DNA from: Pseudomonadota bacterium
GTDB taxonomy: Bacteria > Pseudomonadota > Alphaproteobacteria > Rhizobiales > Xanthobacteraceae
Reading direction: 5' to 3'
Assembly (NCBI GenBank): GCA_021815055.1
Contig: JAKAHJ010000001.1
Span: 1-45,110 of the forward strand
DNA: 45,110 nt
Both the position numbers and the translations under genes were made by a program. The notes below the pieces were generated by a model that worked only from the letters and a program-made list of their open reading frames with translations, had not been told where the DNA came from and did not search any database. Positions 11,958-33,633 of this stretch are shown piece after piece; within the stretch, counting starts at the first letter, position 1, and each line of letters begins with the position of its first letter.

Positions 11958-11984
11958 CACCCAGTTTCGCAACTGACCGATCGC

Positions 11985-28075: not shown

Positions 28076-28483
28076 TCATCGTGCCGAAAACGGATTCAAC
28101 AGTTTAACGCCGAAGCCTGAAAAATCCTTGATGTTTCGCGTAACTATCGTCAGCTCATGTTGGATGCCGGTTGCTGCAATCATGGCGTCCTCGATCAAGG
28201 TGTCAGATCGCCGGTGCATGAGCTTGGCCCATGTTCGGAAAGTCTCGCCGTCCATCGCCAATATATTCCACGTGCCGGCGACTTGATCCGCCCAGGCCTC
28301 GATTTCGGCCGCCCTCGATGGATCTTGCTCGCGTGTTATCTCGATGCCCGCTTGGATCTCCCCGAGCGTCACCGCCGACAGATGGAGATCGCGATCTTCG
28401 ACACCCTGAATCCAAGCAAGGACCGCGCCATGCGGCTTTGGCTTGCGCAGTTCCGAAACGACATTGGTATCGAGGAGATACAC
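28076..28483 (-). CDS. vapC: VapC-family PIN-domain toxin
   Basis: YLLDTNVVSELRK, LSAVTLGEI, DAMIAAT, VTRN.KDF; GTG start. Confidence 0.92.
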   Translation of the reverse strand: MYLLDTNVVSELRKPKPHGAVLAWIQGVEDRDLHLSAVTLGEIQAGIEITREQDPSRAAEIEAWADQVAGTWNILAMDGETFRTWAKLMHRRSDTLIEDAMIAATGIQHELTIVTRNIKDFSGFGVKLLNPFSAR

Positions 28484-28491
28484 GGCGCGCG

Positions 28492-28645
28492 CTAGTGTCC
28501 CGATGAGACGGAATCGGTATCGTCATTGCGAAGAGCCCTGAAAGGGCGACGAAGCAATCCAGGCCGAAAAGCAAGGCTGGATTGCTTCACCCTCGCTTCG
28601 CTCGGCTTCGCAATGACGGATCAGCCTGGTCGTGAACCGCGCTAG
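28492..28645. mobile_element. Family A copy A4: CTAG-bounded MITE-like element between antitoxin and toxin
   Basis: CTAG at both ends (28492-28495, 28642-28645), both outer arms and full palindromic core. Confidence 0.75.
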
Positions 28646-28929
28646 CCGATCCGTTGCGGCGGCCGGCGCCGACGCTCGCCACGGGGCGGAATGCTCAGGT
28701 CGCCGCGCGCTTCCGCGCTCAGCAGAAGCTCCTTGAGCGTCGGGCGAGCCTGACTGGAAAGCCTTTGCCATTGTTCTGCCGGCACCAGCACGGCGGCCTC
28801 GGTCCCGCGCCGCGTGATCATCTGGGGACCTTTTTCCAGGCACGCATCGAGCATCTCGCTGAAGCGGGCCTTGGCGTCCTGAACAGGCCAGTCTTTCATG
28901 GACGGTTTCATAGGTGCTCTCTTACGCAT
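28642..28929 (-). CDS. Phd/YefM-family antitoxin (start could be 28911 or 28899)
   Basis: W.VQDAKARFSEML, GPQMITRRG.EAAVLV; upstream of vapC. Confidence 0.88.
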   Translation of the reverse strand: MRKRAPMKPSMKDWPVQDAKARFSEMLDACLEKGPQMITRRGTEAAVLVPAEQWQRLSSQARPTLKELLLSAEARGDLSIPPRGERRRRPPQRIG

Positions 28930-28995: not shown

Positions 28996-29117
28996 GGGCG
29001 AAGGTCCAGCACAGCCCATCGTCATTGCGAGGAGCCCTGAAAGGGCGACGAAGCAATCCAGGCCAAAAAGCAAGGCTGGATTGCTTCACCCTCGCTTCGC
29101 TCGGGTTCGCAATGACG
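28996..29117. repeat. Family A copy A5 (core 29020-29117) with leader AGGGCGAAGGTCCAGCACAGCCCAT
   Basis: Core nearly identical to that of A4; ends 78 nt upstream of the GIY-YIG gene. Confidence 0.9.
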
Positions 29118-29195
29118 GGCGGGGTTGCTCCCCTCGCAGTGAGGAGGGATCGCCATCGGCTGGTGCTAAGCGCGATGAGGCACTAACCTTGGCGC

Positions 29196-29486
29196 ATGGC
29201 TAGACAACCGGCGGTCTACATTCTGGCAAGCCGTCGAAATGGGACGCTGTACACCGGCGTCACATCGAATTTACCGCAACGCGTCTGGCAGCACCGGACC
29301 GGCGCCGTTCGCGGTTTTACGAAGCAATACGGCTGCAAGACGCTCGTCTGGTATGAAATGCATTCGACAATGCTCGATGCCATTGCCCGGGAAAAACAGC
29401 TCAAAGGCGGCCCGCGCAAGAAAAAACTCGCGCTCATCGAGGCGTCGAACCCGGCTTGGCGGGATCGGTTCGACGACTTGATGTGA
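29196..29486 (+). CDS. Stand-alone GIY-YIG nuclease (96 aa)
   Basis: AVYILAS..NGTLYTGVTSNL..RVWQH, FT..Y, LVWYE, AIAREKQLK, IE..NP.W.D; catalytic Tyr/Arg/Glu present. Confidence 0.9.
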   Translation: MARQPAVYILASRRNGTLYTGVTSNLPQRVWQHRTGAVRGFTKQYGCKTLVWYEMHSTMLDAIAREKQLKGGPRKKKLALIEASNPAWRDRFDDLM

Positions 29487-29503
29487 CGTTACTGCGGGGC
29501 CGA

Positions 29504-29692
29504 AGGGGCAAAATTCAGCCCAGCCCATCGTCATTGCGAGCCCGAAGGGCGAAGGTTCAGCGCAGCCCTCGTCATTGCGAGGAGCCCTGAAAGGGCGACG
29601 AAGCAATCCAGTGTCGCGCATTCGGCTTCTGGATTGCTTCACCCTCGCTTCGCTCGGCTTCGCAATGACGGATCAACCTGATCGCGAACCGC
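29504..29692. repeat. Family A copy A6: half unit (29529) plus full core (29570-29670) plus outer arm
   Basis: Tandem ...CAGCCC(A)TCGTCATTGCGAG leaders, then core, then GATCAACCTGATCGCGAACCGC. Confidence 0.9.
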
Positions 29693-29712
29693 CGTAATCC
29701 CTGCTCCGGCTG

Positions 29713-31338
29713 TCACAAATCCAGCTTCTTCTGTGTCTCGGTGTTCTCGCGCTTGGCCTTCTTGAACACGGTAGGGTCGATCCACGGCATATGCGGCTTC
29801 TTGCCGTCGAACAGGTCCTCGACGGTGAGGATCTGGATTTTCTCGAACTTGCCGTAGTCGGTTTCGTAGAACCCGGCCTTGGCGGCGGCGGTGCGCATGC
29901 CGGTGGTCGGGTCCTCCAGCGTGAGGAACACGCCCATCTTGGCCTTCTCGGAGTCCACGGTGCCGACGAGATCGCGCACCATGTTCGGGTTGAGATTCTG
30001 ACCGCCCTTGACCGACACCACGGCCTTCTCGGTCACCTTGCCGTCCGGCTTGAAATAAAGATAGCCGTCGATGCCGGTGTCGCCGCCCTTCTTGCCGCCC
30101 TTGTAGGGCTGCGCCTCGATCATCGACAAAGCCCAGAGCTGGAACTGGTGCTTGTCCTGCAAGGCCAGTTCGCGCGCCGCGCCGATGTCTTTGGGCACGC
30201 CTTGAATGTCGAATTGCGCCTGCGGGAAGGCGTCGATCAGCCGCCGCTTGATGAGACCGATGGCGAGATGCGTGATGTCGATGCCGATCCAGCGGCGCTT
30301 GAGCTTCTGCGCGGCGTGGACGGTGGTGCCGCAGCCGCAGAAGGGATCGAGCACCAGATCGCCTTCGTTGGAGGAGGCGGAGAGAATGCGTTCGAGCAGG
30401 GCGAGAGGTTTTTGCGTGGGATAGCCAAGGCGTTCTTGGGCTTGGGAATTGATCGGGGGAATATCCGTCCACACGTCGCTGAGCGGGAGCCCCCTTTGCT
30501 CATCTAAGTATCGTTTTAGCTGCGGGACGGTTCCAGGATTCGTCTGAATCACAAGTCCCTTTTCATAAGCCTCCTGCATACGCTCACGCGTCCATCTCCA
30601 AACGCGGGTTACGCCCAGAAATTCATACGTGAGATTTGGCCGATTGGCGTTGGGGTTTATCAGGCTATCGAGCCGAAAAATGCGGCCATCCTTGTCTCGA
30701 TGCTTGTATTTTTCGGCGGTCTTCTCTGGTAAATCGCTCTGGTCATATTCAATAAACAATGCGTCTTCATTCCAAACGAAATCATCCGACTTCTGATAGA
30801 ATAAAATCGTATCATGATTTGTCGGAAGCCGTCGCGACATCAAACTTTTGCCAGTTGATCGTTGCCAGATTATCTCATTGCTGAATCGTTGAGGTCCAAA
30901 TACCGAATCCAACAAAATCTTCAAATAATGACTCGCCGTCGGATCGCAGTGCAAATAAAGCGAGCCGGTCGGCTTGAGCACGCGATGCAATTCCAAGAGC
31001 CGCACCGCCATCATGGCGAGATAGGCCATCATGTCGTTCTCTTTCAGGAACGAGCGCATGGCGCGCAGCATCTCTGCGGCGTCGGAATTGCCCGATTTGA
31101 TCACCTGGTCGAAGGCTTCTTCGGCATGGATGTTCCAATGCCAGGTGTCGCCGAAGGCCTCGATCTGCGCTTGCGACTGCTCGCCGGTCGGCGCGTGGAA
31201 CAGCACATTGTAGGTGGCGTTCGAATTGAACGGGGGATCGAGATAGACCAGATCGACCGTCTCGTCGGCGATATATTCGCGCAGAATGTCGAGATTATCG
31301 CCATAGAACAGCGTGTTGGCGGCAGGCGTCTTGGGCAT
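29713..31338 (-). CDS. Beta-class N6-adenine/N4-cytosine DNA methyltransferase with C-terminal Mrr-like extension
   Basis: Motif IV DPPF precedes motif I DPFCGCGTT; YPTQKP; C-terminal D.GIDG...VSVKGG; no partner REase gene nearby. Confidence 0.88.
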   Translation of the reverse strand: MPKTPAANTLFYGDNLDILREYIADETVDLVYLDPPFNSNATYNVLFHAPTGEQSQAQIEAFGDTWHWNIHAEEAFDQVIKSGNSDAAEMLRAMRSFLKENDMMAYLAMMAVRLLELHRVLKPTGSLYLHCDPTASHYLKILLDSVFGPQRFSNEIIWQRSTGKSLMSRRLPTNHDTILFYQKSDDFVWNEDALFIEYDQSDLPEKTAEKYKHRDKDGRIFRLDSLINPNANRPNLTYEFLGVTRVWRWTRERMQEAYEKGLVIQTNPGTVPQLKRYLDEQRGLPLSDVWTDIPPINSQAQERLGYPTQKPLALLERILSASSNEGDLVLDPFCGCGTTVHAAQKLKRRWIGIDITHLAIGLIKRRLIDAFPQAQFDIQGVPKDIGAARELALQDKHQFQLWALSMIEAQPYKGGKKGGDTGIDGYLYFKPDGKVTEKAVVSVKGGQNLNPNMVRDLVGTVDSEKAKMGVFLTLEDPTTGMRTAAAKAGFYETDYGKFEKIQILTVEDLFDGKKPHMPWIDPTVFKKAKRENTETQKKLDL

Positions 31339-31365
31339 TGGCAGTGATTCCCCCTCGGCCGGACG

Positions 31366-31526
31366 CTAGAGCGGTTCACGATCCGGTTGATCCGTCATTG
31401 CGAACCCGAGCGAAGCGAGGGTGAAGCAATCCAGAAGCCGAATGCTCGATACTGGATTGCTTCGTCGCCCTTTCAGGGCTCCTCGCAATGACGGAACTGA
31501 TTCCATCACATCGGGACATGCTCTAG
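31366..31526. mobile_element. Family A copy A7: complete 161-bp element with CTAGAGC terminal inverted repeats
   Basis: Starts CTAGAGCGG, ends ATGCTCTAG; both arms and core present, reverse orientation. Confidence 0.8.
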
Positions 31527-31599
31527 CGAACGGGAGGCCGATTGCAAGCGGGGCGGGTAGGGCTGCCGGCTCGCGGAATCGACCCTCTCCGCTTGCTCC

Positions 31600-31800
31600 A
31601 TCCCTCCCCTGAAAGGGGAGGGTCGCCCGTCGAAGCCCGAAGGGCGAAGGTTCAGCGCAGCCCATCGTCATTGCGAGCCCGAAGGGCGAAGCAATCCAGG
31701 CCGAAAAGCCAGGCTGGATTGCTCCACCCTCGCTTCGCAATGACGGATCAACCTGATCGTACCCCTCCCCGCCACGCGTAAGGGCGCGTGGGGGGAGGGG
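31600..31800. repeat. Composite: family F left half, family A copy A8 (31666-31759), then a CCCCTCCCC...GGGGAGGGG hairpin
   Basis: ATCCCTCCCCTGAAAGGGGAGGGTCGCCCG matches the rluA insert; followed by a CGTCATTGCGAG...CGCAATGACG core. Confidence 0.8.
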
Positions 31801-33399: not shown

Positions 33400-33633
33400 A
33401 TGACCCGTTCCCGCATCGTCCTCGCGCTCGCCGCCGCCACCCTGGGCTTCACGCTCGCGTTCGCCCCCGGCGCCTTCGCCGACGATATGAAGAAGGACAC
33501 GATGTCGAAAGACACGATGGCCAAGGACTCGATGAAGAAGGACACGATGTCCAAGGACTCCATGTCGAAGGACTCGATGAAGAAGGACACGATGTCCAAG
33601 GACAACATGTCCAAGGACAACATGAAGAAATAA
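33400..33633 (+). CDS. Pentapeptide MXKDX repeat protein (secreted, Met-rich)
   Basis: Signal peptide followed by about ten MxKDx repeats; GAGGAG RBS. Confidence 0.9.
   Translation: MTRSRIVLALAAATLGFTLAFAPGAFADDMKKDTMSKDTMAKDSMKKDTMSKDSMSKDSMKKDTMSKDNMSKDNMKK

What the first reader, a model, noticed from the sequence alone, without database searches (positions are those of the whole stretch)
28996..29692. Stand-alone GIY-YIG nuclease bracketed by CGTC-type palindromic elements: candidate mobiliser of a REP/MITE family
Seen: a 96-aa intact GIY-YIG gene is flanked closely by family A elements in the same orientation, A5 upstream and A6 downstream. It sits at the centre of the densest family A cluster (5 of 8 copies within 3.3 kb). 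The leader AGGGCGAAGGTTCAGCGCAGCCCAT, with variants, occurs only here and at 31640. No transposase, integrase or RAYT gene is visible in the window. Known: GTAG-type REPs flank, and are thought to be mobilised by, RAYT/TnpA(REP) HUH nucleases; as far as I recall, no dedicated enzyme is established for alphaproteobacterial CGTC-type REPs. Some GIY-YIG enzymes (for example Slx1) cut branched DNA. Inference: this could be a RAYT-like autonomous unit in which a small GIY-YIG nicks the cruciform repeats and drives their spread.
Basis: partly seen in the sequence, partly recalled or inferred. Interest (0 to 1): 0.85.

Follow-up and report, generated by a model that had tools for sequence, protein, structure and literature searches.

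The report
Ssn nuclease variant with own hairpins
A small DNA-cutting enzyme gene sits between hairpin repeats, a pairing published in 2025 as the Ssn family; this copy belongs to a sub-branch found almost only beside one longer hairpin type that it likely cuts as single-stranded DNA, and a role in spreading the repeats remains untested.

Summary
In detail: an intact 96-aa GIY-YIG gene (29196-29486) lies between two same-orientation CGTC hairpin dimers. It is a member of the published Ssn family (PMC11893778): 59% identical to the Neisseria SsnA orthologue, catalytic residues kept. That paper already pairs these nucleases with CGTC repeats, shows single-strand cutting just 5' of CGTC, and raises the RAYT analogy as a hypothesis; this scan also met Ssn cassettes on other DNA. 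What I did not find in print (7 searches) is the sub-branch: proteins with Gly72 instead of Trp have the long CGTC-ATTGCGA...GCAAT-CCAG repeat within 400 bp in 49 of 50 loci, Trp72 proteins in 2 of 118, and the published SRM pattern misses this repeat. Autonomy is not supported: only 10 of 31 repeat-rich genomes showed this nuclease type, and half of this genome's dimers ride in a CTAG-bounded element, one copy with a target duplication. The 'leader' is part of a 42-bp direct repeat bracketing a methyltransferase block that one related strain appears to lack. Verdict: new specificity variant of a known system; mobiliser role unproven.

The parts
29196..29486 (+). ssn gene, 96-aa single-domain GIY-YIG nuclease, Gly72/Lys76 sub-branch; Y8, Y19, R29, H33, E66, N85 intact
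29020..29117 (.). A5: inverted dimer of family A half-units (CGTC-ATTGCGA...GAAGCAAT-CCAG), CGTC ends outward
28996..29019 (+). degenerate leader before A5
   Evidence: (D6)
29500..29569 (+). leader + truncated half-unit head (29529-29554) + linker; about 2 tandem copies of a 42-bp unit
29570..29670 (.). A6: inverted dimer, same orientation as A5
29671..29692 (+). right arm of the CTAG-bounded composite element, CTAG end lost
29513..29554 (+). left copy of 42-bp direct repeat bracketing the methyltransferase block
29713..31338 (-). N6/N4 DNA methyltransferase with C-terminal Mrr-like domain; cargo of the strain-variable block
31366..31526 (-). A7: complete 161-bp CTAGAGC...GCTCTAG composite carrying a family A dimer
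31650..31691 (+). right copy of the 42-bp direct repeat (the second 'leader' site)
31666..31745 (.). A8: short dimer; directly follows ssn in one related strain
28488..28645 (.). A4 composite (dimer 28521-28618) inserted at the phd stop codon, 8-bp direct repeat containing CTAG on both sides
28642..28929 (-). Phd/YefM antitoxin gene
28076..28483 (-). PIN-domain (VapC-like) toxin gene

Best explanation
The gene encodes an Ssn-family single-domain GIY-YIG nuclease of a Gly72 sub-branch that lies beside family A hairpins and likely binds each half-unit as single-stranded DNA and cuts a few bases 5' of its CGTC end. Shown here: family membership by sequence, intact active-site residues, and the near-exclusive pairing of this sub-branch with this repeat. 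Inferred from the Neisseria enzyme: single-strand, orientation-specific cutting about 4 nt 5' of CGTC. Inferred: loss of the two conserved tryptophans (W72G, W76K/R, at the hinge and start of the last long helix in the model) retunes recognition to the longer, GA-interrupted stem. Inferred: the cuts, plus homology between copies, make repeat clusters hot spots where host recombination and repair gain, lose or duplicate DNA; the gene spreads as a repeat-flanked passenger cassette, not as a self-sufficient transposon, and at least part of the repeat family is moved by something else (a CTAG-bounded miniature element).
For: 59% identity (55/93) to the N. gonorrhoeae SsnA orthologue, E 6e-29 in a 7.3-Gb library; Y8/Y19/E66 align with SsnA Y6/Y17/E64, whose mutation abolished cutting (alignment). 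Family A keeps the CGTC head, the AT...AT stem base and the CCAG tail (C at -1 in 187 of 210 half-units, CCAG in 162), including the two NTS positions used to block binding and cutting (G26, C49). Pairing: Gly72 49 of 50 loci, Trp72 2 of 118 rows; 100 half-units in 26.8 kb near the gene versus 10 in 112 kb more than 1 kb away; the Gly72 proteins form one branch (SH-aLRT 93, quick tree). The genome's five other Ssn paralogues each sit in a different repeat type, none in family A. Block absent between maoC and the ECF sigma gene in relatives (adjacent in 4 of 29; none of 29 has any block gene within 1.5 kb upstream of maoC). One contig of another study joins 29513 to 31651, skipping the methyltransferase block between the 42-bp repeats. 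Truncated heads lie 5' of full half-units in 9 of 205 cases, orphan tails 3' in 0 of 205.
Against: No Gly72 protein has been assayed in the papers read; all four assayed enzymes were tested on short perfect-stem repeats. The isolated family A half-unit folds weakly (about -6 to -7 kcal/mol; the left half of A5 did not give the ATTGC/GCAAT stem) while the whole dimer folds into one long hairpin (-31 to -36), so the substrate could be the dimer. The strain joint rests on one contig of depth 3.5 across a repeat longer than a typical assembly word. The 9 versus 0 asymmetry is small, non-independent and the tail probe is less conserved. Tree is a quick, weakly resolved one; kin share labels.
Confidence: 0.65

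Rival explanations
1. Autonomous, RAYT-like unit: the nuclease itself excises or copies the dimers and the cassette and is the main engine of family A spread.
For: Gene flanked on both sides in 23 of 35 Gly72 loci under the strict pattern, in some inside a single dimer (L063, L048). 12 of 13 genomes whose top-scoring hit was of this type carry the repeat and 9 of 13 have at least 10 copies, against 66 and 31 of 350 overall (counted by hand). CGTC repeats have no associated transposase (PMC3733652 passages). The Ssn paper itself raises this hypothesis.
Against: GIY-YIG enzymes hydrolyse DNA and form no covalent intermediate, so joining needs another activity (own knowledge). This type was found in only 10 of 31 repeat-rich genomes (not all copies examined in G393, G457, G492), 7 of 31 had no Ssn match at all, and G007 has 169 half-units without one. 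12 of 23 dimers here carry arms of a CTAG-bounded element and A4 shows an 8-bp target duplication. No target duplication or precise empty site was found for A5-ssn-A6 itself (relatives too diverged).
Confidence: 0.13
2. Domesticated single-strand restriction enzyme only: it trims incoming single-stranded DNA carrying family A repeats (as SsnA does in Neisseria transformation) and plays no part in repeat or cassette dynamics; the repeats are moved by transposases in trans.
For: This is the only in vivo function shown for the family. The gene lies among defence-like genes (toxin-antitoxin pair, methyltransferase). CTAG-bounded composites and an IS-like end beside a repeat head at C93 point to other mobilisers.
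Against: The sub-branch is patchy: no close copy in 36 same-genus genomes (best others 67% or less, all Trp72), nearest homologues 82-83% in other lineages, lower GC than flanking core genes (0.58 versus 0.65-0.70). Flanking repeats track the protein branch across families, which a fixed host gene would not need. Competence of this organism was not examined.
Confidence: 0.2
3. Chance: a generic repair-type GIY-YIG gene (UPF0213/Slx1-like) landed in a repeat-rich intergenic hot spot.
For: Closest solved folds are UPF0213 (1zg2) and Slx1; the contig is rich in family A (16 of 52 half-unit hits on 1.8% of the assembly).
Against: Only 26-30% identity to those folds versus 59% to SsnA; 49 of 50 versus 2 of 118 pairing across many families.
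Confidence: 0.02

Closest known systems
Ssn nucleases with NTS/SRM repeats (SsnA of Neisseria meningitidis, CDD cd10448; Chenal et al. 2025, PMC11893778)
   Same: Single-domain 94-96-aa GIY-YIG protein, same catalytic residues, 59% identity to the gonococcal orthologue, gene flanked by oriented CGTC-AT...AT-C hairpins that are also scattered genome-wide; mobility proposed but not shown.
   Different: Gly72/Lys76 replace the two tryptophans of SsnA; the repeat has a longer, GA-interrupted stem that the published SRM pattern does not match (0 of 16 window half-units; 0 of 50 Gly72 loci); flanks are often whole dimers on each side.
CGTC-tagged REPs (Di Nocera et al. 2013, PMC3733652)
   Same: CGTC tag, AT at the first stem positions, CCA tail, head-to-head dimers, mostly Alphaproteobacteria.
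   Different: Their families have 8-9 bp stems and 4-5 nt loops; family A is 26-45 nt with an interrupted stem. Their Figure 2 consensus table could not be seen, so family A may correspond to one of their long-loop variants. From recall, not from a call, some Rickettsia RPE families begin with the same head.
RAYT/TnpA(REP) with GTAG REPs (REPtrons)
   Same: Small nuclease gene flanked by its cognate hairpins; single-stranded hairpin recognition; several gene-repeat pairs coexist in one genome (two RAYT genes with their own GTAG repeats are in this assembly).
   Different: RAYT is an HUH/Y1 enzyme with a covalent tyrosine intermediate able to rejoin DNA (own knowledge); this protein is a GIY-YIG hydrolase.
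CIR / Brucella-type intergenic repeats of Alphaproteobacteria (review passages, PMC2229807)
   Same: About 110-160 bp intergenic elements with TA at the termini and a GANTC site; the CTAG-bounded shell around many family A dimers has both.
   Different: No sequence comparison with CIR was possible (original paper not held); resemblance is a lead only.

Membership tests
Ssn (cd10448) | Small single-domain GIY-YIG protein (under 150 aa) | tested here: met
   96 aa, one Pfam domain, model pLDDT 90.5 with GIY-YIG fold
Ssn (cd10448) | Homology to Neisseria SsnA at E < 1e-10 over > 75% of length | tested here: met
   Against the N. gonorrhoeae orthologue (94 aa, contains the paper's ssnA primer sites): 55/93 identical, E 6e-29, 97% cover. 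Just under the paper's stricter 60% cut-off; the N. meningitidis protein itself was not obtained.
Ssn (cd10448) | Catalytic residues Y6, Y17, E64 of SsnA | tested here: met
   Y8, Y19, E66, invariant in 17 aligned homologues
Ssn (cd10448) | Top CDD hit cd10448 | not testable with these tools
   CDD not available. Indirect: five named genomes that carry a Gly72 copy are scored cd10448-positive in the paper's Supplementary Data 4, but which copy was scored is not given.
Ssn (cd10448) | Flanked by repeats matching the published degenerate SRM pattern | tested here: not met
   No match near the gene; 0 of 50 Gly72 loci versus 41 of 118 Trp72 rows. The paper found SRMs near only 71% of homologues, so this is not required for membership.
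Ssn (cd10448) | Flanked on both sides by an oriented CGTC-stem-C hairpin repeat that is also dispersed in the genome | tested here: met
   A5, A6/A8; 23 dimers in the assembly
Ssn (cd10448) | Falls within the Ssn branch | tested here: inconclusive
   Gly72 branch (SH-aLRT 93) groups among SRM-flanked Trp72 proteins in a quick tree without an outgroup from other GIY-YIG families
Ssn (cd10448) | Site-specific cleavage of single-stranded DNA 5' of the repeat | not testable with these tools
   Needs an assay
RAYT/REPtron | HUH motif and Y1 catalytic tyrosine (PF01797) | tested here: not met
   Only GIY-YIG matched; the genome's PF01797 genes are on C9 and C20
RAYT/REPtron | Flanking GTAG-tagged REPs | tested here: not met
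   Flanks are CGTC-tagged
Autonomous insertion sequence | Target duplication or precise empty site for the repeat-gene-repeat unit | tested here: inconclusive
   Whole 3.9-kb block absent in relatives, but intergenic DNA too diverged to place junctions; no joint skipping the gene in 7 runs whose contigs break at the repeats
CGTC REP superfamily | Unpaired CGTC end, AT first stem pairs, CCA tail, head-to-head dimers | tested here: met
CGTC REP superfamily | 8-9 bp stem with 4-5 nt loop (families 1-4) | tested here: not met
   5-bp outer stem, GA-rich internal loop, variable inner hairpin

The most novel reading that the evidence does not exclude
The Gly72 sub-branch is an Ssn of distinct specificity whose cut 5' of CGTC directly seeds propagation: the freed 3' end primes repair synthesis that duplicates the flank plus repeat head (the 42-bp unit here, orphan heads elsewhere) and lets repeat-tagged cargo such as the methyltransferase integrate. 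That would be a hydrolase-driven, transposase-free counterpart of RAYT/REP and would explain how CGTC repeats and their clusters grow.
Probability: 0.2. Interest if true: 0.7.

Novelty: new variant of a known kind. Interest (0 to 1): 0.3.

Why it matters
The core idea (small GIY-YIG gene flanked by CGTC hairpins, possibly mobile) is in print since 2025, so the finding does not open a new class. The added value is a natural specificity pair: a two-residue change (W72G, W76K/R) that tracks a different hairpin almost perfectly, in genomes where the published motif search shows little or no enrichment (fold 1.05, 0.79, 1.46 for three carriers). It gives a direct test of how Ssn enzymes read hairpins, a candidate new single-strand cutter for tools, and, with five paralogue-repeat pairs in the same genome, a ready panel for cross-specificity and for the open question of how CGTC repeats spread.

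Tried and rejected
NCBIfam, PADLOC and PDB sequence searches gave no family or structure for the nuclease; Rfam gave only a sub-threshold chance hit; repeat-spanning frames matched no NCBIfam RPE model. No homologue among phage records; 34 plasmid-collection records matched, all under 60%. Two scans for the N. meningitidis gene found nothing; the gonococcal orthologue served instead. No sigma-70 promoter or terminator consensus around the gene. No RNA holder listed. No IS630-type DDE_3 transposase found for the CTAG shell in this 69%-complete assembly. The IS-like end at C93 did not match the two IS110 loci found. The careful tree did not finish; the quick tree is reported (4 of 110 rows left out as truncated or untyped). 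Rejected: leader as an independent signal (it is repeat-derived); RAYT genes of this genome as family A partners (0 family A heads within 1 kb of either); my first idea that A8 is a solo deletion product of A5-ssn-A6 (fits better with A8 as the original downstream flank). Uncovered stretches in the laid runs were not used as evidence. Literature searches; none returned a paper on this sub-branch or repeat, but subscription journals are missing and figures cannot be read.

Full report
Observation. The ORF at 29196-29486 encodes 96 aa with one GIY-YIG domain and a confident GIY-YIG model (pLDDT 90.5; nearest solved folds 1zg2 and Slx1 at 26-30% identity). The window holds eight inverted dimers of a half-unit CGTC-ATTGCGA-(variable)-GAAGCAAT-CCAG; the 10-mer head occurs 17 times against 0.17 expected. 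A5 (29020-29117) and A6 (29570-29670) flank the gene in the same orientation. The assembly (2.5 Mb, 69% complete) has 23 such dimers. The leader is confined to this contig but is repeat-derived: leader plus truncated head is a 42-bp unit repeated at 29513-29554 and 31650-31691 (40 of 42). None of five transposase or integrase families matched this contig.

Identity. Chenal et al. 2025 (PMC11893778; I read parts 1-6 of 11 of the text, covering results, discussion and most methods; supplements: file list, Data 5, 8, 10 without its pictures, legends part 1 of 2, and single rows of Data 4; no figures) define Ssn: small cd10448 GIY-YIG proteins flanked by CGTC hairpins, cutting single-stranded DNA upstream of the repeat, inactive on duplex DNA and RNA, limiting transformation in N. 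meningitidis. The 20-nt product from an oligo whose CGTC starts at base 25 places the cut about 4 nt 5' of CGTC (my reading). They note that NTS-ssnA-NTS looks like an insertion sequence and compare it with REP-associated transposases, as a hypothesis. The window protein is 59% identical to the gonococcal orthologue and keeps the residues whose mutation kills SsnA. Di Nocera et al. 2013 (PMC3733652; passages and section 6; Figure 2 not seen) equate Neisseria CGTC-1 repeats with dRS3 and found no transposase for CGTC repeats. Earlier notes of this scan report the same on other genomes; I treated them as leads and had found the paper before consulting them.

What is different. The published SRM pattern matches none of the family A half-units. 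The protein has Gly72 and Lys76 where SsnA and most homologues have tryptophans. Among 80 loci from the species-level genome scan: 36 of 36 Gly72 had family A, 0 of 43 Trp72, 0 of 1 Leu72. Among 29 relatives' loci: all Trp72, 2 with family A. Among later loci (top 29 hits of a 350-genome class draw, 40 regions picked mostly from repeat-rich genomes, and Pfam hits): 13 of 14 Gly72, 4 of 4 with Ala, Asp or Ser72, 0 of 46 Trp72, and 1 of 13 with another residue. Totals without the window: Gly72 49 of 50, Trp72 2 of 118 rows (L008 and L143 are one gene). The published SRM was near 0 of 50 and 41 of 118. With the stricter first pattern the figures were 32 of 35 and 0 of 70. Gly72 proteins form one branch (SH-aLRT 93, quick tree); related rows are not independent, so this is one origin with long retention across Xanthobacteraceae, Beijerinckiaceae, Sphingomonadales and others, not 49 events. 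In this genome the five other paralogues each sit in another repeat type, and one rare half-unit variant occurs only beside this gene and around its nearest homologue L031.

Is the nuclease the mobiliser? For: 24 of 31 genomes with at least 10 half-units have some Ssn against 88 of 319 others, and 9 of 13 genomes whose top hit is of the small-residue-72 type are repeat-rich against 31 of 350 overall (counted by hand; the unpublished genome G171 is one row of these tallies). Against: this type was seen in only 10 of the 31 (copies unexamined in G393, G457, G492; 49 weaker matches were not listed), 7 had no Ssn match, and G007 (98% complete, 200 contigs) has 169 half-units with only a UvrC-sized GIY-YIG frame; loss after expansion or assembly gaps at repeats could explain some. 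Twelve of the 23 dimers here carry one or both arms of a second element, two as perfect 161-bp CTAGAGC...GCTCTAG units. A4 sits at the phd stop codon with an 8-bp direct repeat on both sides; the phd-vapC gap is 158 bp against 1-21 bp in 6 of 7 homologous operons, the seventh having a different insert. That is the footprint of a TA/CTAG-targeting miniature element, usually moved by DDE transposases (own knowledge); its enzyme was not found. The shell recalls CIR repeats (review passages PMC2229807, PMC10969869; not tested).

Dynamics of the locus. In 4 of 29 same-genus relatives maoC directly abuts the ECF sigma gene, and none of the 29 has vapC, phd, ssn or the methyltransferase within 1.5 kb upstream of maoC; the 3.9-kb block is a lineage-specific gain with lower GC in three of its four genes. 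Four runs, from both studies that hold the stretch, cover the gene. In run X5 one 593-nt contig runs from the gene to 29513 and continues at 31651-31749 without differences, skipping 2137 bp. If real (depth 3.5, one contig, junction inside a repeat; a second X5 joint, 29692 to 31631, also skips the methyltransferase), that strain has A5-ssn-A8, and the methyltransferase with A6 and A7 was gained or lost by recombination at the 42-bp repeat that spans the predicted cut site. Truncated heads 5' of full half-units (9 of 205, against 0 of 205 orphan tails) and similar partial copies in the paper's natural NTS oligos hint that cutting there seeds short duplications; this is suggestive only.

Verdict. 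Best reading (0.65): an Ssn of a Gly72 sub-branch, cognate to family A, likely cutting single strands 5' of CGTC and thereby making repeat clusters recombination-prone, spreading as a passenger cassette. Pure restriction role 0.2; autonomous mobiliser 0.13; chance 0.02. New variant of a known kind; interest 0.3. Unseen figures (Di Nocera Figure 2; Chenal Figures 2c, 3e, 5) and unread supplement parts may already show this repeat or branch.

Noticed in passing
G000 C156:208-474, C13:8309-8575, C67:21866-22123, C85:4898-5164, C176:11316-11567: Five further Ssn paralogues, each inside an inverted pair of its own repeat type: CGTCATGGCC (C156), CGTCATTCCGG (C13, C67) and a TGTCCCGG-type repeat without the usual CGTC head (C85, C176), the same family as window repeats near 11979, 22890 and 39913.
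   Followed up: partly
G000 C9:6659-6931 and C20:9631-9960: Two RAYT-like Y1 transposase genes with their own GTAG-tagged repeats; no family A within 1 kb.
   Followed up: partly
window 31366-31526; also 28488-28645, about 26815, 22100, 3895: A 161-bp CTAG-bounded shell with a GANTC site in one arm carries family A dimers at its centre; mobiliser unknown, CIR-like by recall.
   Followed up: partly
G000 C93:1-153 (L151) and C55:1-127: A left shell arm runs into a repeat head that is cut off after CGTCAT by a sequence shared exactly by two contig ends; by recall it resembles an IS110-type end, which would mean an IS targeting the repeat. It did not match the two IS110 loci found.
   Followed up: partly
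L243:1235-1500: A homologous phd-vapC operon in another genome has a different insert of about 270 bp at the same junction.
   Followed up: no
window 29713-31338: Methyltransferase fused to an Mrr-like domain, without a separate restriction gene, bracketed by the 42-bp direct repeat and apparently strain-variable.
   Followed up: partly
G007 (same genus): 169 family A half-units, many in arrays at contig ends, with no Ssn gene detected.
   Followed up: partly
L185, L186 (G251); L174; L205; L070: Other Ssn-like proteins that lost both tryptophans differently (Met, Lys, Phe or Leu at 72); two are flanked by standard SRMs, the G251 pair by neither pattern.
   Followed up: no
L059, L067, L068, L037: Several Gly72 genes look frameshifted or lack the normal stop while keeping full repeat flanks.
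   Followed up: no
window 33400-33633: Small exported protein with a 15-bp tandem (pentapeptide MxKDx) repeat, conserved position next to the cytochrome b gene; ordinary.
   Followed up: no
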